DNA from: Myxococcales bacterium
GTDB taxonomy: Bacteria; Myxococcota_A; Bradymonadia; REDH01
Length of the DNA: 64,000 bases
NCBI GenBank assembly: GCA_947496715.1
Contig: CANMDT010000003.1
Span: 13,112 to 77,111, forward strand
Direction of reading: 5' to 3'
This document shows positions 728 to 39,768 of the stretch, one piece after another. A program made the translations under genes and the position numbers. Within the stretch, counting starts at the first letter, position 1, and each line of letters opens with the position of its first letter. The notes under the pieces were generated by a model, which had not been told where the DNA came from, did no database searches, and saw nothing but the letters and a program-made list of their open reading frames with translations.

Positions 728-1681
728 CTAGAGCGGCACTTCGATGCGCGACACCAGCTCCGCAATGACCGCCTCGGCGGCCGCACGGCTCGAACCCACC
801 ACCGACTCGCCGGTGCCCATCGATACACGATGCGACAGCACCGGACCGCACAGCTCCTTGATGTCCGACGGCAGCACATGTGACCTTCCGGCAACCAGCG
901 CTGCGGCCTTCGCCGCGCGCGTCAGCGCCAGCGCGCCGCGCGTCGAGACACCCACGGAGAGCCGCGCGCTCGTCCGCGTCGCCTGCACGATCGCAAGCAG
1001 GTAGTCGGCCAGCGAGTCATCGAACCGAACCTCGTCCACCGCTGCCATCAGGTCAGCGAGCTGCTCTGCACTCACCACCGCGCCGATGCGGAGCGTCGGA
1101 TCCGACGAGGTCCTCGCGAGCAGCAGCGCCCGCTCCACGGAGGTCGGCGGATAGCCCACCGTGACCCGCATCAGGAACCGGTCGAGCTGCGATTCCGGCA
1201 GCGGATAGGTGCCGTGCGACTCGAGCGGATTCTGCGTCGCGATCACCCAGAAAGGCGAGGGCAGATCCCGCGTCACATCGTCGGTCGAAACACGCCGCTC
1301 CGCCATCGCCTCCAGCAGGCTCGACTGCGTGCGGGGCGCGGTCCGGTTGATCTCATCTGCCAGCACCAGGTTGGCAAAAATCGGACCAGGCTTGAAGCGA
1401 AACTCTCCGCTCTTCTGGTCAAAGACGGTGACGCCGAGGATGTCGGTCGGAAGCAGATCGCTCGTGAACTGGATGCGCGAAAACTTGAGGCCGACCGAGA
1501 TCGCGAGCGCCTGCGCCAGCAGCGTCTTGCCAACGCCGGGCACATCCTCCACCAGCAGATGCCCTCCGGCCAGCAGGCAGATAACCGCCTTGCGTACCAC
1601 CGCCTCTTTGCCCTCGAACACCTTCAGCACATTCTGCTCGAGTGCCCTGATCCGAGCCACCCGCTGCTCCAAATCCTTCAT
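728..1681 (-). CDS. moxR: MoxR-family AAA+ ATPase
   Basis: Walker A EDVPGVGKT, RIQFTSDLLPTDI, LADEINR, ATQNPLE, YPLPESQLDRF motifs. Confidence 0.93.
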   Translation of the reverse strand: MKDLEQRVARIRALEQNVLKVFEGKEAVVRKAVICLLAGGHLLVEDVPGVGKTLLAQALAISVGLKFSRIQFTSDLLPTDILGVTVFDQKSGEFRFKPGPIFANLVLADEINRTAPRTQSSLLEAMAERRVSTDDVTRDLPSPFWVIATQNPLESHGTYPLPESQLDRFLMRVTVGYPPTSVERALLLARTSSDPTLRIGAVVSAEQLADLMAAVDEVRFDDSLADYLLAIVQATRTSARLSVGVSTRGALALTRAAKAAALVAGRSHVLPSDIKELCGPVLSHRVSMGTGESVVGSSRAAAEAVIAELVSRIEVPL

Positions 1682-1808
1682 CCGCTGCTCCTGTTCCGGC
1701 GACTGCGATGCAGACTCTAAGCCTTCTTCACAGCCCCGACAACCGCTTGCGATGCTTGCAGCATCAACCTGTTACGCATTACGCCAAGGGGAGCGTTCGC
1801 GGAGCCCA

Positions 1809-2948
1809 ATGACCACCTGTCCCACCAGAAGCCTGCTGCTCCAGACCCTCGCGCCGGGCCCCGTCGACGCAACGCAGCTCCAGGCGCTGCTCCGAAGCGC
1901 CGACCTCGACACCTTCGCCACCCTGGCCGCCGCCCATGCTGTCGCTCCGGCCGCGGCCGCCTCCCTCCACGCCAGCGCATCCCAGCTGCCTCCAGACTGG
2001 GCTGAATGGGCCGAGACCTGCCTCTTCGAGACCACTGCCCGCAACGGCTGGATCCTCCACCACCTCGCCGTCGTTACCGCCGCACTGCAAGATGCCGGCC
2101 TCCGCTTCTTCGCCCTCAAAGGCTGCGACCTCCTCCTCACAACCTACGAGCAGGTCGGCGCACGCCACCTCGACGACATCGACCTCCTCTTCCACCCCGA
2201 CGACCTCGCCGCTGCCTCCGCCGCCCTCCTCGCCGCCGGCTACCCGCTCCAGTCCGCCGGCACCGAGGTCCCCTTCGTCGATGGCACCTCCTACGCCGAC
2301 TATGTCGCCTCCCAGGCCGCCGACAAAATCCACCCCGCCGTCCATGAGAGCACCGACGGACTCTCCATCGAGCTCCACCGCATGCTCCCGGAGTCCGAGC
2401 AGCCTGCCGCAGACTTCGACCGGCTCTGGGAGAGCCGCATTACCAACGAGCGAGACGGCCTCCTCATCCCGCTCCTGCCGCGCGAAGAGCTCACCCGACA
2501 CCTCTGCATTCACGCCTTCGTGCAGCATCACGGCGACTGGCGCATCCTCGCCCGCCACCTTGCCGATGCGCTCCGGCTCCACCGCGCCGGTTGGCTCAGC
2601 GACACCGACGCTCCGGCTCAAACATCCCTCCCGCTCCGACTCACCAAAGGACTCGTAGCGCTCCACGCCAGCGCGGCGCCACCGGCCGCTGCCACGCTGA
2701 CGCGACTCGTCTTCCCGGGACCCCACGCGCAGCGGCTCTGGGACCAGTCCATCTTCCAGCGGCTCCTCCTGCAGCGCATCGCGCACGACGCCCTGCATCA
2801 GCCCCAGATGCTCCTCCGCAAGCTGCTGCCGAGCGACGACTACCTCGCCTATCACTACGGCGACGAGGCGCTCGCAGCAGGCCGCAAACGGCTCCTGCTC
2901 AAGCGGCTCGCCATGCTCCCCTTCCGGCCCTTCACAGGCGCCCGATGA
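1809..2948 (+). CDS. Nucleotidyltransferase family protein (type found beside lasso/PqqD loci)
   Basis: FFALKGCDL...Y...GARHLDDIDLL and IELH motifs; start moved to ATG 1809 because the ORF-track extension runs antisense over moxR. Confidence 0.8.
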   Translation: MTTCPTRSLLLQTLAPGPVDATQLQALLRSADLDTFATLAAAHAVAPAAAASLHASASQLPPDWAEWAETCLFETTARNGWILHHLAVVTAALQDAGLRFFALKGCDLLLTTYEQVGARHLDDIDLLFHPDDLAAASAALLAAGYPLQSAGTEVPFVDGTSYADYVASQAADKIHPAVHESTDGLSIELHRMLPESEQPAADFDRLWESRITNERDGLLIPLLPREELTRHLCIHAFVQHHGDWRILARHLADALRLHRAGWLSDTDAPAQTSLPLRLTKGLVALHASAAPPAAATLTRLVFPGPHAQRLWDQSIFQRLLLQRIAHDALHQPQMLLRKLLPSDDYLAYHYGDEALAAGRKRLLLKRLAMLPFRPFTGAR

Positions 2949-3928
2949 GCGGCCTGCGTCGCGCACAGCTCGCGGGGATCGACATCGTCTGGCGCCCGTG
3001 GCCCGACTCCGACCCGCTCTCTGCCATCCTCGACTGCCTCGGCGAAACGGAGGCCGCGCCAACCGCCACGCTGCACGTCTCGCTCCGGCATGCCGACGGG
3101 CCGCCTGCGCCGCTCCCCGATGCCAGCCATCGACCCCTCTTCTTCCACGGTCGCACCCGCGTCTTTGCCGCCGATGACCGCATCCTCCTCTGGGACGGCG
3201 CCAGCCTGCTCTCCCTCTCAGGAGACGGCAGCGAACTGAACGGCGAGGTCCACCCCGACTCGCTCGACGACGGCCACACCTTCAGCAGCGCCACCCTCCT
3301 CATCGCGCTCGCCGTCGCGCTCCGCCTCTGCCGCCGCTTCCACCTCCACGCCGGCCTCGTCGCGCTCGATGGCCTCGGCACCCTCCTCGTCGCCGGCGAC
3401 GCGGCGCACGGAAAGACCACAACCACCCTCTCCTTGCTCCGGCGCGGCGGCCTCCTCGCGGGCGACGACACCCTCTACATCGACCCCGCAGGCCGCTGCA
3501 TTTGGGGACTCCCCAAGCCCCTCAACCTCTCGCCAAAGACCGCGCAGGCCTTCGCCGGACTCACCGCGCGCCACCCCAACCCGACAGCCGCCGAGAGCGG
3601 CAAGAGCAGCTACCCGGCCGCCCTGCTCTTCCCCAGCGCAATCCGCGCCTCGCTCGGCTACCCCGACTGGCTTCTCTTCCCACGCATCACGGGCGAGTCC
3701 ACAACCCGCCTCAAGGCGCTCGCGCCTACCGACGCGCTCGGCAACCTCATGACCGCCTCCGCGCTTGTTGCAGTCGACGGCCTCGCACATGCCGAAGAAC
3801 ACCTCGCGGCCCTGCTCGCCCTTGTCTCCCACGGACGCTCCTACGAGCTCCTGCTGGGCCTCGACGCGCTTGAGCGGCCGGACTGCATCATCGACCTGCT
3901 CACCGCCGAGGCGAACAGCCCGCGCTAG
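2945..3928 (+). CDS. HPr kinase-like P-loop kinase
   Basis: FHLHAGLV...LLVAGDAAHGKTTTTL...LAGDDTLY (LHA motif, P-loop, DD pair); ATGA overlap with the nucleotidyltransferase stop. Confidence 0.78.
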   Translation: MSGLRRAQLAGIDIVWRPWPDSDPLSAILDCLGETEAAPTATLHVSLRHADGPPAPLPDASHRPLFFHGRTRVFAADDRILLWDGASLLSLSGDGSELNGEVHPDSLDDGHTFSSATLLIALAVALRLCRRFHLHAGLVALDGLGTLLVAGDAAHGKTTTTLSLLRRGGLLAGDDTLYIDPAGRCIWGLPKPLNLSPKTAQAFAGLTARHPNPTAAESGKSSYPAALLFPSAIRASLGYPDWLLFPRITGESTTRLKALAPTDALGNLMTASALVAVDGLAHAEEHLAALLALVSHGRSYELLLGLDALERPDCIIDLLTAEANSPR

Positions 3929-4212
3929 GCCAGCGCGACGACGACCAGCTTGTCTGCAGCCAGCGACGCGACCATCTCCGCGAGGTCTTCCGCCGCGACT
4001 GCGCCCGTCACCTCGAACTCCTCGACCAGCGCTGCGACGAGTTCTGACGCCAATTTCGAGCGACCGCCGAACCGCTTCCAGATGAAGACGCCGGTCACAT
4101 TCAGCTCGTAGTAAAACTTCGTGTCCATATCGAGCAGCACCCCCTTTCCGTCGGGCATCTCGGTGAGGATGACGCGGGCGCTGGGGGTGATGCGGGTGGT
4201 TTCGAGATCCAA
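3925..4212 (-). CDS. PqqD-family RiPP recognition element (RRE, lasso B1-like)
   Basis: 95 aa, VLLDMDTKFYYELNVTGVFIW...LVEEFEV...AAEDL...LAADKLV is the PqqD winged-helix pattern. Confidence 0.88.
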   Translation of the reverse strand: MDLETTRITPSARVILTEMPDGKGVLLDMDTKFYYELNVTGVFIWKRFGGRSKLASELVAALVEEFEVTGAVAAEDLAEMVASLAADKLVVVALA

Positions 4213-4219
4213 GGCAGAC

Positions 4220-4660
4220 TCACGCGGCAGAGGGTGGATAGACGAAGGTCACCTGATAGTCGGTGGACTCCCTCTCAAGCACAGGTTGCCCCCGAAGTTC
4301 AATCCAAGCATGCCCCTCCATCACGCCTTCGCGCTCGCGGAGCCCCATCTTGAAGACCACCTCCACGCCCCGCTCGCGCAGGCAGCGATACCGGATCAGG
4401 CTCCGCAGCAGGCAGGTTGTCCGCGTGACCCGCACGCGCCGCAGCACGAGTTCGGTCGCCCGCTCTACCGCCTCCAACGCCTCGGCCTCGCTGCGCCCCG
4501 CAAAGCGGGCCGTCGCGGGCGTCAGACCGCGGAAGAGGCGGTCCATGGGGAGCCTCTCGAGGGCAACAGGAAGCAGGCCCCGCAGCAGCACCACCTCTGC
4601 TACCAGAGCAGGCGCCGCTGCCACCTCCTGAAGGAGGCTAGGCAATCTTCTTCGGGCCAC
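4220..4660 (-). CDS. Lasso peptide B2-type leader peptidase (transglutaminase-like)
   Basis: TCLLRSL (Cys), F-x-MG, GHAWIE (His, Glu) catalytic pattern; directly upstream of the RRE. GTG start overlapping the rSAM stop, exact start uncertain. Confidence 0.85.
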   Translation of the reverse strand: MARRRLPSLLQEVAAAPALVAEVVLLRGLLPVALERLPMDRLFRGLTPATARFAGRSEAEALEAVERATELVLRRVRVTRTTCLLRSLIRYRCLRERGVEVVFKMGLREREGVMEGHAWIELRGQPVLERESTDYQVTFVYPPSAA

Positions 4661-5717
4661 CGCCGCAGCCGGTCACCTTCTCTGCATCGACCGCCCACTT
4701 GCCGCGCCAGCGCTCGCGCTTGGCCTCTACACCGCCGCGACCCTCGTCGGTCCAGTAGGGCTTCTTGAAGAGCTTCATGCAGAAGTTGCAGGGGAAGAGG
4801 TCCCACTCCGAGAGCGTGCCCTCTTTGATCGCCTTGTTCTTCTCGGTCTGCGCGTAGTGAATGACGTCGAGCATTTTCTGGTGCGCGTCTGCGAGGCTCA
4901 CCTCGTGCAGGTTGCCCAGCACATCTGCAGGCGCCCCTTCGGTCGGCACGCCAGAGTGCTGGCAGCAGAGCGTCAAGTTGCCCTTCGGATCCACGTGGAG
5001 GATCTCCGAGCGGAAGGGCTGACAGACGAAGAAGGGCTCTTCGCGGTAGAAGCTGTCCGTGAAGGAGACGGGCATGTGCAGGCTGCCCTGCAGCCGCGTG
5101 ATGGTGTCGAGCACCGTCCGCCACTCCGCCGTCGAGAGGAACATCTCCTCGTCGAGGTAGGTACCCGTCGGCTGGGTCATGCCAAACGACATTCGGCCAG
5201 AACCCAGGTGGCTCGCCATCATTGCCATCTGCTCAATCTGATGCGCGTTGTAGGCGTTGACCGTCATCTGCATGATGAAGGGAATCTTCCGCATCGTGCA
5301 GATGGCCACCGCCTGCATGACGTTCCGGAAGCTGCCGGGGCCGCGCACCTTGTCGTGCACCTCCTCCGTCGCGCCATCAATCGAGAAGTTCATGGCGGTG
5401 CAGGTCGAAAGCCGCTCGGGCTTTTCGTCGAGTTTTGCCACCATCCTCGAGAACTTCTCCGAGTTGGTCACCACATGCCACGTGTAGCCGCGGGCCACGA
5501 TGGCATCGATGATCTCGTAGAACTGCGGGTGCAGCGAGGGCTCGCCACCCGTCAGTCCAACATGCTTGCAGCGGTAGAGCTGCCAGGCCTCGTCCAGCAC
5601 ATTGCAGATGAGGTCGAGCGAGAGGTCCTGCGACTTAATCTCGGGGTCCCGGAGGCAGTGCTTGCAGTTAAGCTGGCACCGGTCGGTGATGTGAAAGACA
5701 ACCCAAGTTGGATTCAT
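4638..5717 (-). CDS. Radical SAM protein with C-terminal SPASM/twitch-like Cys region
   Basis: CQLNCKHC (CX3CX2C), LTGGEPSLHP, NFSIDG, C-terminal CQPF...HVDPKGNLTLCC...CNFC; AGAGG RBS upstream. Confidence 0.92.
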   Translation of the reverse strand: MNPTWVVFHITDRCQLNCKHCLRDPEIKSQDLSLDLICNVLDEAWQLYRCKHVGLTGGEPSLHPQFYEIIDAIVARGYTWHVVTNSEKFSRMVAKLDEKPERLSTCTAMNFSIDGATEEVHDKVRGPGSFRNVMQAVAICTMRKIPFIMQMTVNAYNAHQIEQMAMMASHLGSGRMSFGMTQPTGTYLDEEMFLSTAEWRTVLDTITRLQGSLHMPVSFTDSFYREEPFFVCQPFRSEILHVDPKGNLTLCCQHSGVPTEGAPADVLGNLHEVSLADAHQKMLDVIHYAQTEKNKAIKEGTLSEWDLFPCNFCMKLFKKPYWTDEGRGGVEAKRERWRGKWAVDAEKVTGCGGGPKKIA

Positions 5718-5735
5718 AGGACCTCTGAGCGGACG

Positions 5736-7406
5736 CTAGCGCGCGATCGCCGGATTGAGAGTGGTGGCTTCGATGAGACCCGGGCGGGGACCACCATCGA
5801 GGACCTCGTTGGTGGTGATGCGGGTGGTGAGACCGGAGGTGACATTGATCACCATGATCTCGGTCTGAACAACGCTGGCCGAGGCAAAGATGCGCTCGGT
5901 CACGACCAGGTTCCCGTTGGGGAAGAAGGCGGGCGAGCTGTCGTTGGTCGAGCCCGAGACGGGCGTCGGCGTACCCGAGGTGCGGTGCGTCGTGCAGTTG
6001 AATGCGTTGCTGTAGAGCTGCGTCGCGCCGCCGCCGAGGTCCTTCGTCCAGATCGCCGAGGTGCCGGCCGGGCTGATAGCGGGCGCACCGAGGTAGCCGG
6101 TGAGGCTCGCGGTGCCATTGCCGGCGCCGTCAACACCGACCGAGAAGAGCGTCACAGAGCCGCCAGCAGCCTGCTTGGTGTAGATGACCGTGGCCGGGTC
6201 GCACTCGGCGATCGCAGGGTCGGCTTCGCCGTTGCCGCCGTTATCGACGAGCACGGTGCAGGCGGCACCGCTCGCGTCGAGGGGCTGGGTGAAGAGGCCG
6301 AAGTCGCCGCTGTAGAAGTTGGTGAAGACGATTGCCGACTCATCGGGAACCACCGTGAAGCCGCCGCTGAGGAGGCCGGTCGGGTCGGGGTTGCCCTGAT
6401 AGGCGAGCTCGGGGCAGACCGGGGTGAGCTGCTCGATGGCGCCCGTCTCAATGGCGAGCTTGTAGATGCCAACGTTGGTGTTCGCGGGCGCCGAGCAATC
6501 GGTCACCTTCATCGAGAAGTAGACGGAGCGGCCGTCGGGCGACCAACGAGCGGCAAGCTTCTGACCAGGAAGGTTCGTCACGCGGCGCTCATCTGTGCCG
6601 TCGGCGCGGATGACGTAGAGCTGCGAATCCTGCTGCTCAGCACAGGCCGAGCCGGGCGTACGCACGAAGAGGATCCAGGGGTCCGCGGTCACGGGGACTG
6701 CAACGCACACGCCGCCGTCGCAGTTGGTGCCGGTGGGGCAGGCCGTCTCGGTCTCTGCGTCGCGGCACTCACAGCTGGTGCCGATGTCGTAGGCGGTGCG
6801 GGCCGTCTCGACCCGGTCGTTACCGCGGCAGAAGGGGGCAGGCGCCGCGTCGCAGATGGTCGCGTCGCAGATGCAGGTGCCGGCTTGGTCGACGAACGTG
6901 TCGAGGCAGTCGCCGCAGGAGTCGGGGCCGGCCACAACATCGCAGGCGCGGTTGTCGGGCTCGCAGTCGCGGGCGTTCAGGGTGTCGCACTCCAAGCAGG
7001 CCGCGTTGTTCGCACAATCCGAGTCGGCGCAGTCGGCGTTGCCGTCGCCATCGTCGTCCGTGCCGTTGCCGCAGCTCTCTTGGATGCCGCCGGTGTCGGT
7101 TCCGGTGTCGACCGTCGTGTCCTCGACTGCGGTGTCGACCTCGGTGTCCTCGATGTTGGTGTCTTCCTCGATCGTGTCGGCCGTGCCCGTATCCGTGGAG
7201 GTGTCCGCGGTGGTGTCGGGCGCGGTATCCTCGCAGCCCTCACCGGTGAAGAGGTTGCACGAGGTGCCCGTATCCTCGGTCTTCTCCGACGTTTCGTCTC
7301 CGCAGGCAACGAGTGCGAGCGAGGCGACGAGGGTCGCGGCCGTGAGGGTCGAAGGCCCGCGAAGCAGGGCGAGCAGAGAGGTCGAATTCAGCGTCGTGCG
7401 GGCCAT
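5736..7406 (-). CDS. Lipoprotein with Asp/Thr-rich linker, Cys-rich modules and TolB/PD40-like beta-propeller
   Basis: Lipobox LVAC; DT-rich linker; CGNGTDDDGDGNADCADSDC; QLYVIRADG, RWSPDGRS, PAISPAG, PAFFPNG propeller repeats. Start set to ATG 7406. Confidence 0.75.
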   Translation of the reverse strand: MARTTLNSTSLLALLRGPSTLTAATLVASLALVACGDETSEKTEDTGTSCNLFTGEGCEDTAPDTTADTSTDTGTADTIEEDTNIEDTEVDTAVEDTTVDTGTDTGGIQESCGNGTDDDGDGNADCADSDCANNAACLECDTLNARDCEPDNRACDVVAGPDSCGDCLDTFVDQAGTCICDATICDAAPAPFCRGNDRVETARTAYDIGTSCECRDAETETACPTGTNCDGGVCVAVPVTADPWILFVRTPGSACAEQQDSQLYVIRADGTDERRVTNLPGQKLAARWSPDGRSVYFSMKVTDCSAPANTNVGIYKLAIETGAIEQLTPVCPELAYQGNPDPTGLLSGGFTVVPDESAIVFTNFYSGDFGLFTQPLDASGAACTVLVDNGGNGEADPAIAECDPATVIYTKQAAGGSVTLFSVGVDGAGNGTASLTGYLGAPAISPAGTSAIWTKDLGGGATQLYSNAFNCTTHRTSGTPTPVSGSTNDSSPAFFPNGNLVVTERIFASASVVQTEIMVINVTSGLTTRITTNEVLDGGPRPGLIEATTLNPAIAR

Positions 7407-7607
7407 GACAATCTCCAGCGAAAAACGAGGTCCAAGAGGGGTGCGCAGCGCGCGAGGTTTACGTTTGACTCCCGCGTAGCACAGCGGCAGAGATGAGATC
7501 AAAAGAAGATCTGATGCGACAGCCCGCTACGTATGACAGAATTTGTCACCACGAGCCGCCCAGACTGTCTCTTTCCGTCACCGAAGCGACGGGGAAACGA
7601 TGACACG

Positions 7608-7648
7608 AAAAAGGGCCGACAGGTCTCTCGCGAGACTTGTTCGGCCCT
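7608..7648 (-). terminator. Rho-independent terminator downstream of the precursor peptide gene
   Basis: Plus strand AAAAA-GGGCCGACAGGTCTC-tcgc-GAGACTTGTTCGGCCCT: long hairpin followed by a T5 tract on the minus strand, 29 bp after the precursor stop. Confidence 0.75.
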
Positions 7649-7676
7649 GTCAGGCGAACCGAGGTACGAGGTCCGA

Positions 7677-7877
7677 CTAGCCGGAAGCCGTGAGGCCGCC
7701 AGCCGAAACGCCGCCGCCCGAGAAGAGCGTAACGCGCGCCACAGAGCGCTTCTTCGCGAGGCTCGGGGCCTCGTAAGCGCGACGACCCATCGATACAGCC
7801 TCTTCGAGGCCGACCGACTCAGCGACCACATCCGTGGTCGAATCCTGTTGCTTTGGCATTGGCCGTTGCTTGCTCAT
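7677..7877 (-). CDS. Putative RiPP precursor peptide, 66 aa (lasso-type leader, Gly/Ser/Ala-rich core)
   Basis: AAGGAG RBS before ATG 7877; MSKQRPMPKQQDSTTDVVAESVGLEEAVSMGRRAYEAPSLAKKRSVARVTL-FSGGGVSAGGLTASG; YxxPxL and penultimate Thr; followed by a terminator; lies within an RRE/peptidase/rSAM locus. Confidence 0.8.
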   Translation of the reverse strand: MSKQRPMPKQQDSTTDVVAESVGLEEAVSMGRRAYEAPSLAKKRSVARVTLFSGGGVSAGGLTASG

Positions 7878-7954
7878 GTCTCGGCTCCTTCGAAGGGGTC
7901 GTGACCCCGATGGGTGTTTGCGAATCGTCTCGTCAATCCGACGTGAGTAGACAA

Positions 7955-7971
7955 TGCATGAATCAAGCCAA
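7955..7971 (-). promoter_or_regulatory. Possible sigma54-type (-24/-12) promoter for the precursor gene
   Basis: Minus strand TTGGCTTGATTCATGCA has GG-N10-GC spacing, in an AT-richer intergenic stretch about 80 bp upstream of the ATG; match to the consensus is imperfect. Confidence 0.3.
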
Positions 7972-7994
7972 CAATGCAACATGTTCGATCGCAG

Positions 7995-8795
7995 TTAGTA
8001 ATGCGCCAACGATCCTTCCTTGAGAACCGTCCGGACTGCCGCTCGAACCGAAAACAGCGCCACCGTTGACGCAACAGCTACCAAGACTCCTAGCCGAATC
8101 GCAACCGGCGCCAACTCGGCCCAACTGCTGCCAGCCAGCGCCAGCCGAACCCCGTCCACCACCGGTGCGATAGGAACCCATGCCCCGACGGCGCCCACCG
8201 CGGCCGGCAGCTCCGTCCGCGGCATAAACACACCTCCCGTTACCACCGCCGAGATGTGCATGGCCCGGTTCAACGGATCTCCGGCCTTGTAACGGAGTAG
8301 CAGCGCCGCCGAGATCAGACCGACCGCGAGGAAGAGGAGCATTCCGCCGACGCCGAAGAAGGCCGCGTAGACCCAGGCGACCGGAGAGGGTGCAGGCGCC
8401 ATGAACAGGCTCGCCAGCACAACAATCGCGCTCGACCGCATCACGCTCACCGACAGATCGAAGGTCGGCATCGCCGTCATCAGCGCGGGCAACGAGTGGC
8501 CCGTCATCAGGCAGGCCTCGAGCATGCCCGTCGTCTGGTGGCGACGCAGTTTGCTCGTAAAGGCGCCCAGCGAGGTCCACATGAGGTCCATCGCCGCAAA
8601 ACCGCAGGCGAGAAACGGCAAGATGCCCAACTGGCCCGCCCCCATCCCTTCGCCCACCAGCTTGGAGAGCCCGTGCAGCAGAAAGAACATCAGTCCCAGA
8701 CCGACAACTCGGTTGAAGTGAACCAGCGGATAGCTTTGCGCTTCGCGGAAATCATGGAGCCAGAAGGCACGAAGGAGCTTCCATTGCGCCCTCAT
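7995..8795 (-). CDS. ABC-2 type exporter permease
   Basis: Six hydrophobic segments, TGMLEACLMT and GVFMP...LP...WVP ABC-2 pattern; overlaps the ATPase stop (ATGA). Confidence 0.85.
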   Translation of the reverse strand: MRAQWKLLRAFWLHDFREAQSYPLVHFNRVVGLGLMFFLLHGLSKLVGEGMGAGQLGILPFLACGFAAMDLMWTSLGAFTSKLRRHQTTGMLEACLMTGHSLPALMTAMPTFDLSVSVMRSSAIVVLASLFMAPAPSPVAWVYAAFFGVGGMLLFLAVGLISAALLLRYKAGDPLNRAMHISAVVTGGVFMPRTELPAAVGAVGAWVPIAPVVDGVRLALAGSSWAELAPVAIRLGVLVAVASTVALFSVRAAVRTVLKEGSLAHY

Positions 8796-9610
8796 GCCTC
8801 TTCCTCCGCCTGCTCACGCTCAAAGACAGCATCGGCCGCGGCTGCAACCGCAGCGAAGCCGCCGGACGCCACCACGCGACCGCCGTCGAGGAGATGGACC
8901 GTGTCGCAGAGCGCCTCCAACTCTGCCATGTCGTGAGAGGCAATGAGAATGGCCTTCCCCTGCTCTTTGGCGAGCTGCAGACAGAGCCGCTTGAACGATT
9001 CACGACGGCCGGGATCGAGCCCCGTACTTGCCTCGTCGAGCAGCAGCAGCACCGGGTCGGCGATCAGCGCGCGGCCCATCGACAGCCGCTGTCGCATGCC
9101 CGATGAGTAGGTCCGGAAGGGACGATCGGCCTGCCGCGTAAGACCGACGCGGGCCAACGCATCGGCAACCGCTTCGGCCCGCGACCCACCATCCTTTTGC
9201 GCCAGTTCCGCGAAGAAGGCGAGGTTCTCACGGCCTGTCAGCCGCAGGTTGAAGGAGCGGTCCTCACGCGAGACCCAGCCGATACGCCGACGCTGCGTGC
9301 CACCCCCGGCGGTCGGCGCCGAACCATCCACAAGGAGCTCCCCCGAGGTCGGCATCACAAGGCCTGCAACGCAGCGCATGAGCGTACTTTTGCCGGCCCC
9401 GTTGGGCCCGATAAGCCCCACAATCTGCCCTGCCCCGATCTCGAACGAGATGCCATGAAGCACCTCGACCGGCGGCGGCCGGCGAAAGCGCAGAAGCTCC
9501 CTCACGCGAGGCGTGACCGTGAAGGTCTTGCAGACCTCGTGTAACCGCAGCACCGGACGCGCCCCTGCGGGAGAGAGCGCCCCTGGCTGCAACTCCCCCG
9601 CCTGAAGCAC
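8792..9610 (-). CDS. ABC exporter ATP-binding protein
   Basis: GPNGAGKST, YSSGMRQR, LLLLDE, SH switch; GTG start overlaps the mrp stop by 1 nt. Confidence 0.92.
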   Translation of the reverse strand: MLQAGELQPGALSPAGARPVLRLHEVCKTFTVTPRVRELLRFRRPPPVEVLHGISFEIGAGQIVGLIGPNGAGKSTLMRCVAGLVMPTSGELLVDGSAPTAGGGTQRRRIGWVSREDRSFNLRLTGRENLAFFAELAQKDGGSRAEAVADALARVGLTRQADRPFRTYSSGMRQRLSMGRALIADPVLLLLDEASTGLDPGRRESFKRLCLQLAKEQGKAILIASHDMAELEALCDTVHLLDGGRVVASGGFAAVAAAADAVFEREQAEEEA

Positions 9611-12285: not shown

Positions 12286-13524
12286 TCAATCGGGCAGCCT
12301 CTCGAGCGTCCCTGCGGTGCCGGTTTCATCGAGCAGCACCATGTCGTCGCGATGGATGACCGCATCGCCATTGGAGTATCCGAGCGTCTCGGTGATCTGC
12401 TCGCTGCGGAGACCCTGGAGGCGTCGAATCTCCGATGCCGAGTAGGCTACCAACCCTCGCGCGAAGGTATTGCCCGCCTCGTTCTGAAGGTCGACCGCAG
12501 CGCCGGGCCCGAAGTCGCCGCTCACGCCGAGCAGACCGCTCGGCAGGAGCGACTTGCCCATCTCGCGGAGGGCGCGCGAGGCGCCAGCATCGACAGAGAT
12601 GACACCGCTCGGACGGGCTCCAAACTTGATCCAGCTCTTGCGGGCACCGAGCTGCTGATCGCGCGGAACAAGCAGTGTGCCGAAGCCAGGCCCGCCGCTC
12701 AGTGCCGCACCCAGACCACTCAGCTCGCGGCCTGGCCCGATGATGGTCGGAACGCCATAACCGGCAGCGATACGCGCCGCCCGGATCTTGGAGGCCATAC
12801 CGCCCGTGCCCGGGCCCTCCTGACTCGCCGGCCCCGCGATGGAGAGCAGCCCCGGGTCGTCGGCAAAGGCCACAGCGATGGGGTTGGCGTTGTTGTCGCG
12901 GGTCGGGTCGGCGTCGAAGACGGCGCTAACGTCGGAGAGGATGATCAGGAGGTCGGCGCCGACGACGCTGGTGAGTAGTCCGGCGAGCTGGTCGTTGTCG
13001 CCAAAGCGGAGCTCCTCGGTGGCCACCGTATCGTTCTCGTTCACGATGGGGATGATGGAGGGCACAAGCTCCATCTCGCGGAAGGTGATGCGGGCGTTGA
13101 GGAACCGCTCCCGGTTGGCGATGTCGTCGCGTGTGAGAAGCACCTGCGCGACCTGCTTGCCATAGAAGGCGAACTCTTCGCCGTAGAGGTGCATGAGGCG
13201 CGGCTGACCGATGGCTGCAAGCGCCTGCTTGGCCGACAGCGTATCGGCGCGCCCCTCATCGGCGCGCCGGAGCGAAGCGATGGTGCGACGCCCCACCGCC
13301 ACGGCGCCCGAGGTCACCAGGACGATGTGGCGGCCGGGCACGTCGGCAAGGCGCGCAATGGTCTCTACAATGGCGCAGAAATTGTGCCGGTCGATCAGGT
13401 TGGCGTAGCCACCGACCAAGACGTTCGAGCCAACCTTGATAACAATCCGTTTGGCCCGCGCGAGGCGGGCACGGGTCTCTGCTTCGGTCGCCGGGGCGAC
13501 CCGCTCAACTTGAATTCTCGACAC
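12286..13524 (-). CDS. proB: Glutamate 5-kinase with PUA domain
   Basis: IVIKVGS, LVTSGAV, AAIGQ, IVNENDTV, FGDND, GTGGMASKI, C-terminal PUA (KSLLPSG...IHRDDMV). Confidence 0.96.
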   Translation of the reverse strand: MSRIQVERVAPATEAETRARLARAKRIVIKVGSNVLVGGYANLIDRHNFCAIVETIARLADVPGRHIVLVTSGAVAVGRRTIASLRRADEGRADTLSAKQALAAIGQPRLMHLYGEEFAFYGKQVAQVLLTRDDIANRERFLNARITFREMELVPSIIPIVNENDTVATEELRFGDNDQLAGLLTSVVGADLLIILSDVSAVFDADPTRDNNANPIAVAFADDPGLLSIAGPASQEGPGTGGMASKIRAARIAAGYGVPTIIGPGRELSGLGAALSGGPGFGTLLVPRDQQLGARKSWIKFGARPSGVISVDAGASRALREMGKSLLPSGLLGVSGDFGPGAAVDLQNEAGNTFARGLVAYSASEIRRLQGLRSEQITETLGYSNGDAVIHRDDMVLLDETGTAGTLERLPD

Positions 13525-13603
13525 GGAGCAGACTCGGTTAGGGTTGACGGGCGGGCATCTTCAGGGCTTGAAGCGCCTATCGGCTACCACGCGAGGCCTC
13601 GTC

Positions 13604-15553
13604 GTGACAACGCGCTCCAACCATAACGCGACCACCGCCCTCTGGGTAGCGAGTTGGATTGTCGCGGCGGTATGCGTGTGGAACGGCTCGCCGGGTCTTG
13701 GCTGGCTCGATGCAGGCGACTTTGCCAGCGCCGGCTTCTCACTCGGAGTGCCCCACCCCTCGGGATTTCCACTCCTCACGCAGCTCACCAACCTCGCTGG
13801 GCTCCTGCCCGCAGGCAGCCTCGGCGGGCGTTCCGCCTGGCTGTCAGGCGCTGCGACCGCCGCCGCCATCGGGCTTCTCGTCGCAGCCCTCTTCCGCGCA
13901 CGGGCCTCGAAAGCGCTAGGCTTCGTCGTGGCAGTCGCGGCACTCCATGGCATCGCGACGCTGAGCATCCATGCTCGCACCACCGAGGTCTACGGGCTCA
14001 CGCTCCTGCTTGGCGCCGCCATCATCTGGCTGCTCGCGCGGGCCGACGTGCGACGCGACGCGCCCGACCTCCGACTCTCACTGCTGCTCGGCCTGCTGCT
14101 CGGTCTCGGCTTCGCCCATCACGCTCTCTTCCGACTCTGGGCGCCCGCGGTGGTAGTGCTCCATCTGCTTCAGCTACCGCGACAGCACCGGAACCGCGCA
14201 CTCCTGCTTGGCGCATCAGGTGCCGTCGTGGGAGGTCTCACCAACCTCTATCTGGTTGCGGCCGCGCTACGAGGAGGACCCCACAACTGGGGCGACCCAT
14301 CAACGCTGCCGGCGCTGCTCCGGGTGCTCGGAGGGGCTGAGATTCGTGAGGCATTCACGGGCGAAATGGGGAGCCTTACCCACGCCTCCGAACACCTGCT
14401 CGAGGCGGTGCGGCAGCTGGGAGGCTTTGCGCCCATCCTTGCAGCCTGCCTGATGATGCTGTTCGGCCTGCTGCGTTGGCGAACAGGCAGCGAAAGGGCT
14501 CCATCAGCGCTCACCGCGGTGGCCACGATGATTGCAATCGAGGTCGTCTACGCCATCTTCCTCAACCCCATGGGGCTCCGCGATCTGCAGAACCTGCAGT
14601 GGACTGCACTCCTGCTCCCGCTGCTTGGCATCGCCTGGCTCGAGCGCGCTGAAGTCCCCGATTCCGGTAAGCGTTGGCTCCTTCCTGCCGCTGCGCTCGC
14701 CCTCGCCCTGCTGCTCCGGGCACCCACCGACGCACGCGCTGTGGGCCTCGCCAATGACTGGAGCGCTGAAGACCTCGCCGCCATGGCGCTCGCCGCGGCG
14801 CCACCCGAGGCCGTTGTCCTCCCCGCGAGCGACAGCCTCATCGCCGGCACCCTCTTCCTGCAGGTCGCCGGCGACGCGCGCCCCGACCTCTACCTGCTCG
14901 GTCGGTCGCAGGCCTCGCGCGAGGCGGCGCTGCGTTACCTCGACGCTCGCCAGCCCTTCACGCTGCTCGGCGAACCGACAGAGAGGGGCGACGTCGCAGA
15001 CCTCCGCCCCCGGTTTGACCGACTGCTCGCGCGGGCCGCCGCGGCGGGACACCCGGTGCTCTGGGAGCGCCTCACGCGCGACACAGATCTACCCGCAGCA
15101 ACTGTGCTGACGGACTGCTGGCCTCTCGCCTTCGCCACGCCGGGTGGCAGCTGTCCAGTGGAGCGGCGCATCGGAACCGGCTCGCTCGACGTCGGCTTCG
15201 GCCAGTCAGCCAGAGCGAACTCAGGCGCAGCGCTCCCAGCCTACCGGAGTTGGCTCGCGGAGCAGCACGGAGCGCGAGGCTCCGACGCAGCGCGAGCGAG
15301 CGACTGGGCGCGTGCACTGCCCGCTTTTGCCGGCGCGGCGACGCTCGAGCCCTCCTCCAGCCGGCTCTCCAACCTGGCCGTGACGCTCGCCAACCTCGGG
15401 CGCTCCGACGAGGCCTTCGCTGCGCTCGAGTCGGCCTGGCCACTTTATCCGCAGAGCACGAAACTCTGCAGCAACGCGGCCGCCTTCCCCAACACGAACC
15501 CCGAAGTCAGGGCCCGCTGGGCAGCTCGATGCCCAACTCAGCCCTCGGAATAG
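13604..15553 (+). CDS. DUF2723-family (TMEM260-like) GT-C membrane protein with TPR-like tail
   Basis: DAGDF...LGVPHPSGFPL, EVYGL, HH in TM, NWGDP; many TM segments. Start uncertain (GTG 13604 chosen). Confidence 0.72.
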   Translation: MTTRSNHNATTALWVASWIVAAVCVWNGSPGLGWLDAGDFASAGFSLGVPHPSGFPLLTQLTNLAGLLPAGSLGGRSAWLSGAATAAAIGLLVAALFRARASKALGFVVAVAALHGIATLSIHARTTEVYGLTLLLGAAIIWLLARADVRRDAPDLRLSLLLGLLLGLGFAHHALFRLWAPAVVVLHLLQLPRQHRNRALLLGASGAVVGGLTNLYLVAAALRGGPHNWGDPSTLPALLRVLGGAEIREAFTGEMGSLTHASEHLLEAVRQLGGFAPILAACLMMLFGLLRWRTGSERAPSALTAVATMIAIEVVYAIFLNPMGLRDLQNLQWTALLLPLLGIAWLERAEVPDSGKRWLLPAAALALALLLRAPTDARAVGLANDWSAEDLAAMALAAAPPEAVVLPASDSLIAGTLFLQVAGDARPDLYLLGRSQASREAALRYLDARQPFTLLGEPTERGDVADLRPRFDRLLARAAAAGHPVLWERLTRDTDLPAATVLTDCWPLAFATPGGSCPVERRIGTGSLDVGFGQSARANSGAALPAYRSWLAEQHGARGSDAARASDWARALPAFAGAATLEPSSSRLSNLAVTLANLGRSDEAFAALESAWPLYPQSTKLCSNAAAFPNTNPEVRARWAARCPTQPSE

Positions 15554-16683
15554 AAGTTGGCGACAGAGGCGACAACATAGTCCTGCTGCGCCTCTGTCAG
15601 CCCCGGGAAGATGGGCAGCGCGAGCGAGTCGCGCGTCGCAGCCTCCGCGTTCGGGAACGACGCTCCCTCCGGCACGAAGGCGGCCAGCGAGGGCTGCTGC
15701 GCCAGCGTCTTGGGGTAGTAGACCGCGCTGCCGATGGAGCGCTTGTCGAGGTAGGCCGCAAGCTCATCGCGGCGCGGCGCACGCACGACGAACTGGTTGT
15801 AGACATGGTAGAAGCGACGGTCTGCGCCGTCGTCGGACGGCAGCGCGAAGGCTTCAGGCAGCGAGGCCGCCGCGAAGAGGGCACGGTAGCGAGCTGCATT
15901 GGCGCGCCGCTCCTCTTCCACCGCGTGTAGGTCGGGCAGCTTGGCGCGGAGGATGGCGGCCTGCATGCCATCGAGGCGCGCGTTGTAGCCAAGCACGACG
16001 CTGTTGTACTTCGCCGCGAAGCCATGCTGGCGCACCATGCGGAGCTGCTGGACCTCTGCCTCGGTGCGGACGAAAGCCATGCCGCCGTCGCCGTAGGCGC
16101 CCAGGTTCTTGGCGGGGAAGAAGGAGACACAGCCAACATCGCCGAGCGTGCAAACAGGCTGGCCGTCAAGACGCGCGCCGAGGCCCTGCGCTGCATCTTC
16201 GATGATGCGCACATCGCTGCGACCAGCCTCCGCAAGCGCCGCACGAAGCGCGACAACATCGGCTGCCCGACCAAAGAGGTGCACGGCGATGACCGCGCGT
16301 GTCTTCGTCGTGAGCGCTCCGACCATGGCCTCCGGCGTCAGGTTGAGCGTCTGCGGATCCACGTCGGCGAAGACGGGGCGGGCGCCCACGAGCGCGACCG
16401 TGCTCGCGGTCGACATGAAGGAATAGGCGGGCACCACGACCTCGTCGTCGGCCTGGAGTTCGAGCAGCCGGAGGGCGAGCATCAGCGCCGCCGTTCCCGA
16501 GCTGGTTCCAACGCCGCGCCAACCCGGAACTTCGAGCCATGCCGCCAGCTCCTCTTCGAACGCTGCTGCTTCGGGACCCAGGATAAACTGCTGGTGGTCG
16601 AGGCAGCGGGCAACCGCCTGCTCAATCTCCGGCTTGCGGCGAAGGTGGAGCAACTTCATGTCGAGCAGGGGGACCGTCATCAT
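15538..16683 (-). CDS. DegT/DnrJ/EryC1/StrS sugar aminotransferase (WbpE-like)
   Basis: SSGTAAL, IEDAAQGLG, SFFPAKNLGAYGDGG (PLP Lys), NARLDGMQAA, HVYNQF, SLALPIFP. Confidence 0.92.
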   Translation of the reverse strand: MMTVPLLDMKLLHLRRKPEIEQAVARCLDHQQFILGPEAAAFEEELAAWLEVPGWRGVGTSSGTAALMLALRLLELQADDEVVVPAYSFMSTASTVALVGARPVFADVDPQTLNLTPEAMVGALTTKTRAVIAVHLFGRAADVVALRAALAEAGRSDVRIIEDAAQGLGARLDGQPVCTLGDVGCVSFFPAKNLGAYGDGGMAFVRTEAEVQQLRMVRQHGFAAKYNSVVLGYNARLDGMQAAILRAKLPDLHAVEEERRANAARYRALFAAASLPEAFALPSDDGADRRFYHVYNQFVVRAPRRDELAAYLDKRSIGSAVYYPKTLAQQPSLAAFVPEGASFPNAEAATRDSLALPIFPGLTEAQQDYVVASVANFYSEG

Positions 16684-39632: not shown

Positions 39633-39768
39633 GTTTCCTGCGTCAGAGAGACAGGGTGCTGCTACCGAGTGGCTGCGGTGTTTCGCAAGCCCAATGCCGC
39701 GGCGTGGGTGGAGTTTGGCTGCTGCCCCTGCTAGCCGAACCAGGAGAAGTTGTCGTCTGGAGGCACCG

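What the first reader, a model, noticed from the sequence alone, without database searches (positions are those of the whole stretch)
1809..9610. Putative new RiPP class: lasso-type leader, RRE and peptidase driving a radical SAM enzyme, kinase and nucleotidyltransferase, with no lasso cyclase
Seen: a compact locus holding precursor, PqqD-type RRE, B2-type Cys peptidase, rSAM with SPASM-like tail, HPr-kinase-like protein, nucleotidyltransferase and ABC-2 exporter, flanked by unrelated genes (moxR; mrp/thiolase/proB). No asparagine-synthetase-like cyclase occurs anywhere in the 64 kb. Known: lasso clusters need that cyclase; paeninodin-type lasso clusters carry an HPr-kinase-like enzyme and some also a nucleotidyltransferase. 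Inference: the lasso recognition and cleavage machinery has been re-used to deliver a short linear core to an rSAM enzyme, giving a crosslinked or epimerised, possibly phosphorylated/nucleotidylated peptide. I cannot tell whether this exact architecture has been reported.
Basis: partly seen in the sequence, partly recalled or inferred. Interest (0 to 1): 0.92.

Follow-up and report, generated by a model that had tools for sequence, protein, structure and literature searches.

The report
Cyclase-free lasso-like radical-SAM peptide pathway
A conserved, transcribed gene set appears to make a small modified peptide with the leader-binding and leader-cutting proteins of lasso peptides, but with a radical SAM enzyme where the lasso-forming cyclase should be. 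I found no description of it, and the full set occurs in at least four bacterial phyla.

Summary
Window 1809-9610 encodes an NTP_transf_5 nucleotidyltransferase, an HPr-kinase-like P-loop kinase, a PqqD-type RRE (B1), a lasso-type B2 cysteine peptidase, a radical SAM enzyme, a 66-aa precursor and an ABC-2 exporter.

No asparagine-synthetase-like cyclase is present anywhere in the 64 kb.

The set is not a one-off. In 43 related loci with enough flank, the rSAM ortholog sits with:
- the RRE in 41
- the kinase in 39
- B2 in 34
- the nucleotidyltransferase in 34
- a recognisable precursor in 38
- an AsnB homolog in 1, and that one is a genuine glutamine-dependent enzyme 8.5 kb away

46 of 48 distinct precursors have the canonical lasso leader, [YFW]xxP-x11-T-x. 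The predicted cores of 8-18 aa, mostly starting with Phe, have no Cys. Only 2 of 46 have an acidic residue at position 7-9, so neither a lasso ring nor a thioether is possible.

Two freshwater metatranscriptomes hold RNA contigs over precursor-lipoprotein-rSAM-B2.

The chemistry (crosslink, epimerisation, phosphorylation) remains inference. No description was found in the searchable literature or in NCBIfam.

The parts
1809..2948 (+). Nucleotidyltransferase, family NTP_transf_5 (PF14907), the family the PsmN-type lasso tailoring enzyme is annotated as (not compared directly).
   Evidence: Pfam E=1.1e-29. The KG...R...D.D motif is conserved in 25 homologs. Present in 34 of 43 related loci. No RNA coverage in runs X11 and X13.
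2945..3928 (+). HPr-kinase-like P-loop kinase.
   Evidence: Pfam Hpr_kinase_C E=1.7e-5 (below gathering), NCBIfam HprK_rel_A E=1.7e-6. PDB HPr kinase 1ko7 E=4e-4. His, GxxxxGK[T] and DD are conserved in 48 homologs. This matches the His-Lys-Asp-Asp motif reported for PadeK/ThcoK (PMC9266682). Present in 39 of 43 loci.
3925..4212 (-). Discrete PqqD-type RiPP recognition element (B1).
   Evidence: Pfam PqqD 56.1 bits against a cut-off of 23.4. The best NCBIfam models are the two lasso PqqD chaperone models, both below cut-off. Present in 41 of 43 loci. Low-depth RNA contigs at 3819-4277.
4220..4660 (-). Lasso-type B2 leader peptidase (transglutaminase-like Cys protease).
   Evidence: NCBIfam NF033537 lasso_biosyn_B2, 55.1 bits against a cut-off of 33. 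Pfam Transglut_core3 E=1.7e-15. Cys, GHAW His and Glu are at least 90% conserved in 40 homologs. Present in 34 of 43 loci.
4638..5717 (-). Radical SAM peptide maturase with a twitch/SPASM-like C-terminal domain and no RRE of its own.
   Evidence: Pfam Radical_SAM E=9e-22. C14/C18/C21 and C232/C251/C252/C310/C313 are at least 97% conserved in 59 orthologs. AF2 pLDDT 88.7, with best Foldseek matches SuiB, SkfB, BlsE, PqqE and anSME. No NCBIfam family reaches its cut-off (best 79.6 bits against 265). Covered by an RNA contig.
5736..7502 (-). PD40/TolB-like beta-propeller protein with a lipoprotein-type signal (..LALVAC; likely start MARTT at about 7406). Accessory, role unknown.
   Evidence: Pfam PD40 E=1.4e-6; NCBIfam TolB propeller and acidic double-disulfide repeat. 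Its stop is 18 nt before the rSAM start, and it lies inside the RNA contig 4452-7919. PD40 relatives lie near the rSAM in only about 6 Myxococcota loci.
7608..7648 (-). Hairpin followed by UUUUU directly after the precursor gene. Probable intrinsic terminator or attenuator.
   Evidence: dG -28.8 kcal/mol, z=-4.1, and 0 of 200 shuffles fold as well. In run X13 contig depth is 43 over 7437-7882 and 14-17 downstream.
7677..7877 (-). Precursor peptide, 66 aa: MSKQRPMPKQQDSTTDVVAESVGLEEAVSMGRRAYEAPSLAKKRSVARVTL|FSGGGVSAGGLTASG. The recognition stretch Y35-L51 is 7725-7775. The predicted core F52-G66 is 7680-7724.
   Evidence: AGGAG lies 8 nt before the ATG at 7877. RNA contigs reach 7919 and 7882. 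Homologous precursors were found in 38 of 43 loci. YxxP-x11-T-x spacing holds in 46 of 48.
7995..8795 (-). ABC-2 type permease. Candidate exporter; membership uncertain.
   Evidence: Pfam ABC2_membrane E=3.3e-7. A homologous ATPase-permease pair directly follows the NTase in L027. No RNA coverage in X11 or X13.
8792..9610 (-). ABC transporter ATPase (DrrA-like). Candidate exporter; membership uncertain.
   Evidence: Pfam ABC_tran E=5.6e-31; NCBIfam drrA subfamily E=7e-51, below cut-off. ATPase homologs lie within 10 kb in about 11 related loci. No RNA coverage.

Best explanation
This is a self-contained pathway for a ribosomally made, post-translationally modified peptide. It uses the lasso leader system but not lasso chemistry.

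Proposed order of events:
1. The 66-aa precursor is bound through its YEAPSL motif by the discrete PqqD-type RRE (B1).
2. B1 presents the C-terminal 15-residue core (FSGGGVSAGGLTASG) to the radical SAM enzyme. That enzyme has no RRE of its own and one twitch-type auxiliary cluster. It abstracts a hydrogen from a core residue. The outcome is either an intramolecular carbon-based crosslink or an L-to-D epimerisation.
3. The HPr-kinase-like enzyme phosphorylates a Ser or Thr hydroxyl of the core, and the NTP_transf_5 enzyme extends that phosphate, as PsmK and PsmN do in pseudomycoidin.
4. B1 and B2 then cut after Thr50-Leu51 and release the modified core.
5. Where an ABC-2 exporter is present, it exports the product.

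Shown here:
- the gene content
- its conservation across phyla
- intact catalytic motifs
- the lasso-type leader with exact spacing
- absence of a cyclase
- absence of cyclisable acidic residues and of Cys in the core
- transcription in nature

Inferred: every chemical step, the order of steps, the cleavage site and export.
For: Conservation:
- The rSAM family has 510 database hits at E<=1e-10.
- It has 281 clusters at 50% identity with E<=1e-30 among 1.84 billion representatives.
- In 43 loci with at least 4 kb on both sides, the counts are RRE 41, kinase 39, B2 34, NTase 34, precursor 38 and AsnB-like 1.
- Compact operons exist in Polyangium aurulentum (L001) and Ca. Brocadia pituitae (L023: A-K-rSAM-B1-B2-N).

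Leader and core:
- 46 of 48 precursors have [YFW]xxP-x11-T-x.
- 33 of 46 predicted cores start with Phe.
- 0 of 46 contain Cys.
- 37 of 46 have no Asp or Glu.

Catalytic residues are intact in B2, the kinase, the NTase and the rSAM.

The rSAM fold resembles the peptide maturases SuiB, SkfB and PqqE.

B1 and B2 of paeninodin cleave without ATP and without the cyclase (PMC5067487), so a cyclase-free B1/B2 pair is biochemically plausible.

RNA contig 4452-7919 appears in a freshwater metatranscriptome, and a second run has its highest depth over the precursor. A terminator-like hairpin follows the precursor.
Against: - No product has been seen, so the rSAM reaction is unknown.
- The three precursor subfamilies share little in the core beyond Phe and small residues, so the chemistry may differ between them.
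- The characterised lasso kinases act on a strictly conserved C-terminal Ser. Only 3 of 46 cores here end in Ser.
- The kinase and NTase genes had almost no RNA coverage where the rSAM operon was covered, so they may not act under the same conditions.
- B2 is missing near the rSAM in 9 of 43 loci.
- The ABC exporter is not conserved across loci.
- Contig depth is a poor measure of expression, and DNA carry-over cannot be fully excluded.
Confidence: 0.72

Rival explanations
1. It is an ordinary tailored lasso peptide cluster of the paeninodin type. Its cyclase is encoded elsewhere in the genome, and the rSAM is only a secondary tailoring enzyme.
For: B1, B2, kinase, NTase and the leader are all of lasso type. 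The rest of the genome could not be searched.
Against: There is no cyclase in the 64 kb. None lies within 10 kb in 42 of 43 related loci from several phyla. The one AsnB homolog has the MCGIFG glutamine-amidotransferase N-terminus. The window core has no Asp or Glu, and only 2 of 46 cores have one at position 7-9, so the defining macrolactam cannot form.
Confidence: 0.03
2. The product is not an exported antibiotic. It is a peptide-derived cofactor or an intracellular or periplasmic signal, made in the manner of PQQ (PqqD/PqqE) or mycofactocin.
For: The pathway pairs a discrete PqqD with an rSAM that lacks an RRE, as in PQQ. PqqE is the best PDB sequence match. The core is almost invariant in Pyrinomonadaceae (FFQAxTSGATN in more than 15 loci). 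No exporter is conserved, and the ABC genes in the window were not covered by RNA.
Against: Cores are hypervariable within Myxococcota, as expected for specialised metabolites. ABC exporters recur next to the set. No partner dehydrogenase or other cofactor-using enzyme is conserved nearby. PqqE and MftC model scores are far below cut-off.
Confidence: 0.15
3. The kinase, not the rSAM, replaces the cyclase. It activates a carboxylate, for example the C-terminus, as an acyl phosphate. The N-terminal amine freed by B2 then attacks it, giving a head-to-tail or other macrolactam, and the rSAM only tailors.
For: The kinase is as tightly linked to the set as the RRE (39 of 43). It lies directly next to the rSAM in two of the three subfamilies. 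Core lengths of 8-18 residues and conserved C-terminal Gly or Asn are compatible with cyclisation.
Against: Characterised relatives phosphorylate a Ser hydroxyl, not a carboxylate (PMC9266682). The same His-Lys-Asp-Asp residues are kept. There was no RNA over the kinase where the rSAM operon was covered. I know of no precedent.
Confidence: 0.05
4. It is a decaying remnant of a lasso cluster with no current function.
For: In the window the NTase-kinase pair is inverted relative to the rSAM operon and had no RNA coverage. DNA contigs of run X1 are fragmented over 1.9-4.4 kb.
Against: The same set is conserved across phyla with all catalytic motifs intact. The ORFs are uninterrupted. Precursor, rSAM and B2 appear in RNA contigs from two independent metatranscriptomes.
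Confidence: 0.02

Closest known systems
Kinase-bearing lasso peptide clusters with split B protein (paeninodin padeCAKB1B2D; pseudomycoidin with PsmK/PsmN)
   Same: Discrete PqqD-type B1, transglutaminase-like B2, an HPr-kinase-like kinase with the His-Lys-Asp-Asp residues, and an NTP_transf_5 nucleotidyltransferase. The leader is YxxPxL with Thr at -2. An ABC exporter sometimes accompanies the set, and in Pyrinomonadaceae a sulfotransferase does too.
   Different: There is no asparagine-synthetase-like cyclase. The core lacks the ring-forming Asp/Glu and the conserved C-terminal Ser. A radical SAM enzyme is the constant partner instead.
PqqD/PqqE of pyrroloquinoline quinone biosynthesis
   Same: A small stand-alone PqqD-fold chaperone delivers a short peptide to an rSAM enzyme that has no RRE domain of its own. 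PqqE is the best sequence match among solved structures (E=1.8e-16).
   Different: PqqE scores 66.7 bits against a cut-off of 381. The precursor has no Glu-x3-Tyr. There are no pqqB or pqqC genes. Only one auxiliary cluster is predicted, against the full SPASM of PqqE. A dedicated Cys peptidase, a kinase and an NTase are present.
SynChlorMet (Scm) cassette of NCBIfam/TIGRFAMs (ScmC HPr-kinase-like, ScmD PqqD-like, ScmE and ScmF rSAM/SPASM)
   Same: The combination of an HPr-kinase-like protein, a PqqD homolog and rSAM maturase(s). The kinase homologs carry weak precomputed ScmC Pfam hits. NTP_transf_5 genes also sit next to Scm-like cassettes (L077, L079).
   Different: There is one rSAM, not two, and it scores 73 bits against a cut-off of 400 for ScmE and ScmF. 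A lasso B2 peptidase is present. A clear lasso-type precursor is present, whereas as I recall the family description no precursor has been identified for Scm.
Sactipeptides with a discrete RRE (streptosactin-type StsB/StsC)
   Same: An rSAM maturase served by a separately encoded RRE that recognises a W/Y/LxxP/L/I-type motif (PMC12710340).
   Different: The cores here contain no Cys, so no thioether can form. StsB scores 59 bits against a cut-off of 625. No B2 peptidase, kinase or NTase is described for those systems.

Membership tests
Lasso peptide biosynthetic cluster | Leader with YxxPxL-type recognition motif and Thr at position -2 | tested here: met
   The window has YEAPSL-x9-T50-L51. 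46 of 48 homologous precursors keep the P-to-T spacing of 12 residues.
Lasso peptide biosynthetic cluster | RRE (B1, or the N-terminal domain of B) of PqqD fold | tested here: met
   Pfam PqqD scores 56.1 bits against a cut-off of 23.4. The lasso-specific NCBIfam models are the best hits but fall below their cut-offs (41.6 against 70).
Lasso peptide biosynthetic cluster | B2 transglutaminase-like cysteine leader peptidase | tested here: met
   NF033537 scores 55.1 bits against a cut-off of 33. The Cys, His and acidic triad is conserved.
Lasso peptide biosynthetic cluster | Asparagine-synthetase-like lasso cyclase (PF00733, PP-loop SGGxDS) | tested here: not met
   No PP-loop motif in any of six frames, no AsnB phmmer hit, and no PF00733 in 20 large ORFs of the window. 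Absent within 10 kb in 42 of 43 related loci.
Lasso peptide biosynthetic cluster | Core with Asp or Glu at position 7-9 to close the macrolactam | tested here: not met
   The window core FSGGGVSAGGLTASG has no acidic residue. 37 of 46 cores have none, and 2 of 46 have one at position 7-9.
SPASM/twitch radical SAM peptide maturases | CxxxCxxC radical SAM cluster motif | tested here: met
   C14-x3-C18-x2-C21 is at least 97% conserved in 59 orthologs.
SPASM/twitch radical SAM peptide maturases | C-terminal Cys-rich domain binding auxiliary Fe-S cluster(s) | tested here: inconclusive
   C232-x13-G246-x4-C251 plus C310-x2-C313 are conserved. The fold matches SuiB, SkfB, PqqE and anSME. There is no Pfam SPASM hit, and the second half of the seven-Cys motif is absent. 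One cluster (twitch-like) is inferred, not shown.
Sactipeptides / ranthipeptides | Cys residues in the core as thioether donors | tested here: not met
   0 of 46 predicted cores contain Cys.
SynChlorMet cassette | Paired rSAM/SPASM proteins ScmE and ScmF reaching the NCBIfam cut-off | tested here: not met
   There is a single rSAM. It scores 73.5 and 73.6 bits against a cut-off of 400. Scm-like loci L077 and L079 score 351-392 bits.
Lasso-tailoring kinases (PadeK/ThcoK/PsmK) | Conserved His-Lys-Asp-Asp catalytic residues | tested here: met
   H, GK[T] and DD are at least 90% conserved in 48 homologs. The motif is as given in PMC9266682. No direct sequence comparison with PadeK was possible.
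Lasso-tailoring kinases (PadeK/ThcoK/PsmK) | Substrate precursor ends in a conserved C-terminal Ser | tested here: not met
   C-terminal residues of the predicted cores are Asn 18, Gly 11 and Ser 3 of 46. The window core ends in Gly.
PQQ biosynthesis (PqqD/PqqE) | PqqE and PqqD reaching their equivalog cut-offs | tested here: not met
   PqqE scores 66.7 bits against 381. PqqD scores 17 bits against 46.

The most novel reading that the evidence does not exclude
This is a new RiPP class in which the lasso B1/B2 leader-recognition and leader-cleavage module works as a portable cassette. A twitch-type radical SAM enzyme has taken the place of the lasso cyclase as the class-defining enzyme. The product would be a short Phe- and Gly-rich peptide carrying a carbon-based crosslink or D-residues, optionally phosphorylated and further decorated. 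The class would be found from Myxococcota to anammox bacteria, Nitrospira and Acidobacteriota.
Probability: 0.55. Interest if true: 0.82.

Novelty: new variant of a known kind. Interest (0 to 1): 0.74.

Why it matters
Transglutaminase-like B2 peptidases are treated in the 2023 review of RiPP leader proteases (PMC10885120) as particular to lasso peptides. The lasso cyclase is used as the marker for mining them.

A conserved, expressed family that keeps B1, B2, the kinase and the nucleotidyltransferase but swaps the cyclase for an rSAM enzyme would have three consequences:
- It would show that the leader module is exchangeable between RiPP chemistries.
- It would probably account for part of the roughly 300 'false positive' lasso-type RREs next to rSAM genes noted by RRE-Finder (PMC7470986).
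- It would give a defined enzyme, substrate and chaperone trio for finding a new rSAM reaction on Cys-free, acid-free cores.

The carriers are environmentally important and hard to culture (anammox bacteria, Nitrospira, soil Acidobacteria, freshwater Myxococcota). The product may therefore matter ecologically.

Tried and rejected
1. Lasso cyclase hidden in the window: rejected by the PP-loop motif scan, AsnB phmmer and Pfam on 20 ORFs.
2. The AsnB homolog in L060 as a cyclase: rejected. It has the MCGIFG amidotransferase N-terminus and lies 8.5 kb beyond the set.
3. Assignment of the rSAM to a curated family (mycofactocin MftC, ScmE/F, PqqE, WgkB, StsB, SkfB, SbtM, AhbD and others): all are far below cut-off and match only the N-terminal core.
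4. Sactipeptide or ranthipeptide chemistry: rejected, because the cores have no Cys.
5. The short start codon for the precursor (ATG at 7790, 37 aa): less likely than 7877. Homologs have 25-35 residues before the Tyr, AGGAG precedes 7877, and RNA contigs reach 7882 and 7919.
6. The consensus terminator scan missed the hairpin after the precursor because of bulges. Folding found it.
7. Ten literature searches on combinations of lasso, radical SAM, HPr kinase, nucleotidyltransferase, PF13471, PF14907, SynChlorMet and 'no lasso cyclase' found nothing describing this architecture. The library lacks most subscription-journal papers, and two key lasso papers were not held.

Full report
**What is in the window**

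The region 1809-9610 of this 66% G+C window holds the following genes, in map order:
- NTP_transf_5 nucleotidyltransferase, 1809-2948 (+), Pfam E=1e-29.
- HPr-kinase-like P-loop protein, 2945-3928 (+). The evidence is weak but consistent: Pfam E=1.7e-5 (below gathering), NCBIfam HprK-related kinase A E=1.7e-6, and PDB HPr kinases E=4e-4.
- PqqD-fold RRE, 3925-4212 (-).
- B2 peptidase, 4220-4660 (-). It passes NCBI's own threshold for 'lasso peptide biosynthesis B2 protein' (55 bits against 33).
- Radical SAM enzyme, 4638-5717 (-).
- 588-aa PD40/TolB-like lipoprotein, 5736-7502 (-).
- Small precursor ORF ending at 7677.
- ABC-2 permease, 7995-8795 (-), and ATPase, 8792-9610 (-).

**No cyclase**

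- The PP-loop motif SGGxDS is absent from all six frames of the 64 kb.
- E. coli AsnB finds nothing among all window ORFs by phmmer. It does find a real AsnB in locus L060, so the test works.
- Pfam scans of the twenty ORFs of 400 aa or more outside the locus show no Asn_synthase. They show type IV pilus genes, TopA, FeoB, glycosyltransferases and the like.

**The set is a conserved cassette, not a local accident**

- The rSAM has 510 database relatives at E<=1e-10. Many are about 50% identical and come from Polyangium, Minicystis and other Myxococcota.
- A full HMMER scan of 1.84 billion representatives gives 281 clusters at E<=1e-30.
- Contexts in Polyangium aurulentum and in metagenomic contigs show rSAM-B2-PqqD-(NTase)-kinase in one direction.
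- A scan of one genome per GTDB species returned 80 loci.
- Local phmmer and HMM searches identified 62 loci with an rSAM ortholog at E<1e-35.
- Of the 43 with at least 4 kb on both sides, 41 have the RRE, 39 the kinase, 34 the B2, 34 the NTase, 38 a recognisable precursor and 1 an AsnB homolog.
- That single AsnB homolog starts MCGIFG and lies 8.5 kb beyond the set. It is an ordinary glutamine-dependent enzyme.
- The full set occurs in Myxococcota, anammox Planctomycetota, Nitrospira and many Acidobacteriota (Pyrinomonadaceae and Blastocatellia). In Ca. Brocadia pituitae the order is precursor-kinase-rSAM-B1-B2-NTase.
- Partial sets occur in Competibacteraceae and Thermodesulfobacteriota.

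**The precursors**

Three subfamilies were found:
- Myxococcota: ..YEAPSLAKKRSVARVTL|FSGGGVSAGGLTASG
- Anammox and Nitrospira: ..FIEPKLTKHGDATEITG|GFFGSFAPYE
- Pyrinomonadaceae: ..FVEPAISVPVDVLEATT|FFQAATSGATN

In 46 of 48 distinct sequences the Pro of [YFW]xxP is followed after exactly eleven residues by Thr, then one residue, then the variable C-terminus. From memory, this is the spacing of the fusilassin leader (YTAPQLAKVGEFKEATG|W...). It also matches the 'invariant Thr at -2' stated in PMC10885120.

If cleavage follows Thr-x, the cores are 8-18 residues long:
- 33 of 46 begin with Phe.
- None contains Cys.
- 37 have no acidic residue.
- Only 2 have Asp or Glu at position 7-9.

So a lasso macrolactam and sacti- or ranthipeptide thioethers are excluded on chemical grounds, wherever a cyclase might be encoded.

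**The enzymes look active**

- In 40 B2 homologs the Cys, the His of GHAW and a Glu are conserved.
- In 48 kinase homologs a His, the Walker-A Lys and an Asp-Asp pair are conserved. These are the four residues reported as essential in PadeK/ThcoK (PMC9266682).
- The NTase keeps its D.D motif.
- In 59 rSAM orthologs from all subfamilies, C14/C18/C21 and C232, C251, C252, C310 and C313 are at least 97% conserved, and G246 at least 95%.
- C232-x13-G246-x4-C251 is the first half of the SPASM/twitch signature. With C310-x2-C313 it predicts one auxiliary cluster.
- The fifth invariant Cys (C252) is then free. From memory of YydG/EpeE, a free Cys of this kind can act as the hydrogen donor in an epimerase. 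This is a lead, not a result.
- The AF2 model is confident (pLDDT 88.7). Its best structural matches are SuiB, SkfB, BlsE, PqqE and anSME. PqqE is the best sequence match in the PDB.
- The protein starts directly with the rSAM core, so it has no RRE of its own. It presumably depends on B1, as PqqE depends on PqqD.

**Expression in nature**

- The locus is nearly identical (up to 99% of sampled words) in many lake and freshwater metagenomes, and it is also held in two metatranscriptomes.
- In run X11 one RNA contig spans 4452-7919, from just upstream of the precursor through the lipoprotein and rSAM into B2. Weaker contigs cover the RRE.
- In run X13 the deepest contig (43x) is 7437-7882, over the precursor.
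- Neither run covers the ABC genes or the NTase-kinase pair, while a DNA run covers everything evenly.
- A strong hairpin with a U-tract follows the precursor stop codon (dG -28.8 kcal/mol, z=-4.1). This is the usual arrangement for giving more precursor than enzyme.
- These data favour the ATG at 7877, giving a 66-aa precursor.
- Caveat: these are assembler contigs. Depth is only a rough measure of expression, and DNA carry-over cannot be excluded.

**Mechanism**

What follows from established knowledge:
- B1 proteins bind YxxPxL leaders and hand them to B2.
- In paeninodin this cleavage needs neither ATP nor the cyclase (PMC5067487).
- PadeK-type kinases act on the linear precursor (PMC9266682).
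- PqqD delivers PqqA to PqqE.

I therefore propose that B1 is the shared hub. It presents the precursor to the rSAM for the class-defining step, to the kinase and NTase for tailoring, and finally to B2 for leader removal after Thr50-Leu51.

The rSAM reaction itself is unknown. My rough split:
- about 45% for a carbon-based crosslink (the Phe-rich motifs FFGxF and FFQ resemble substrates of cyclophane-forming enzymes)
- about 30% for epimerisation (small hydrophobic cores and a spare invariant Cys)
- the remainder for something else

The kinase target cannot be the C-terminal Ser of the characterised systems, because most cores end in Gly or Asn. A Ser or Thr at core position 2 is conserved in Myxococcota.

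**Comparison with known systems**

- It works like a hybrid of a paeninodin-type lasso pathway (B1, B2, K, N and the leader) and PQQ-type chaperone-assisted rSAM chemistry.
- It is not a lasso cluster. Two defining features, the cyclase and the ring-forming acidic residue, were tested and not met.
- It is not a SynChlorMet cassette. It has a single rSAM scoring 73 bits against 400, whereas Scm-like loci in Chloroflexota score 351-392 bits.
- It is not PQQ, mycofactocin or a sactipeptide system.
- No NCBIfam model (release of June 2026) covers the rSAM or the precursor.
- RRE-Finder (PMC7470986) noted about 300 lasso-type discrete RREs next to rSAM enzymes and counted them as false positives of its lasso model. 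Some of these probably belong to this family, but I did not check that.
- Ten full-text searches found no description of the architecture. The library omits most subscription journals, so prior publication cannot be excluded. I put that at roughly 15-20%.

**Verdict**

The finding is best rated a new variant of a known kind: a RiPP pathway with an undescribed combination and probably a new class-defining modification. The lead is of high practical value because precursor, chaperone and enzyme are all defined.

Noticed in passing
window 5736-7502 (-): A 588-aa protein sits between the precursor and the rSAM, with its stop 18 nt before the rSAM start, and lies inside the same RNA contig. It has a lipoprotein-type signal (LALVAC), an acidic DT-rich region, a Cys-rich repeat and a PD40/TolB-like propeller. 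PD40, LTD or CHRD secreted proteins also sit next to the set in L002, L008, L011, L012 and L055. Its role is unknown.
   Followed up: partly
window 1500-4400: In DNA run X1 the contigs over the NTase-kinase-RRE region are short and run on into unrelated sequence. One contig joins 3243 to 3885, skipping 641 bases inside the kinase gene. This suggests strain-level variation or loss of the kinase in part of the population. The same region has almost no RNA coverage.
   Followed up: no
L055 11016-15362 (also other Pyrinomonadaceae loci): The acidobacterial version of the set carries extra genes between the rSAM and B2: a sulfotransferase-family protein, an HTTM-domain membrane protein and an LTD-domain protein. 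Sulfotransferases are also reported as accessories of some lasso clusters (PMC4289311).
   Followed up: partly
L064 8094-8679: Two tandem precursor genes with identical predicted cores (FFQAATSGATN) and different leader N-termini.
   Followed up: no
L023 8753-8962, L024 4782-4988, L025, L031, L035: Precursors of the anammox group carry the recognition motif twice in tandem (FAEPKLTFIEPKLT). Only the second copy has the canonical spacing to the Thr.
   Followed up: no
L027 6599-8065 and 6667-6933: In a Thermodesulfobacteriota locus, a second rSAM/SPASM enzyme (best NCBIfam matches TIGR04053, SbtM and ACGX-type, all below cut-off) overlaps an ORF in another reading frame that could encode a Cys/Gly-rich peptide (..GNGCGGGCGCGCGGGCGPFPAP). 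Both lie directly upstream of the kinase-rSAM-RRE-NTase-ABC set. This may be a second substrate or a hybrid pathway.
   Followed up: no
L077 7661-12266, L079 9645-19569: Chloroflexota loci with SynChlorMet-like ScmD, ScmE and ScmF (351-392 bits, just under the 400-bit cut-off) also have an NTP_transf_5 gene nearby. The nucleotidyltransferase therefore seems associated with PqqD-plus-rSAM cassettes more widely than with lasso clusters alone.
   Followed up: partly
L002 13777-14565: A Formyl_trans_N formyltransferase gene directly follows the kinase, in the same direction, in one Myxococcota version of the set.
   Followed up: no
window 13514-18518: Two paralogous TMEM260-like putative O-mannosyltransferases (13514-15553 +, 16680-18518 -) flank a DegT/DnrJ/EryC1 aminotransferase (15538-16842 -).
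   Followed up: no
window 35890-39944 and 62173-63999: Three large ORFs (632, 719 and 608 aa, all with high GC3) have no Pfam match at E<=0.001.
   Followed up: no
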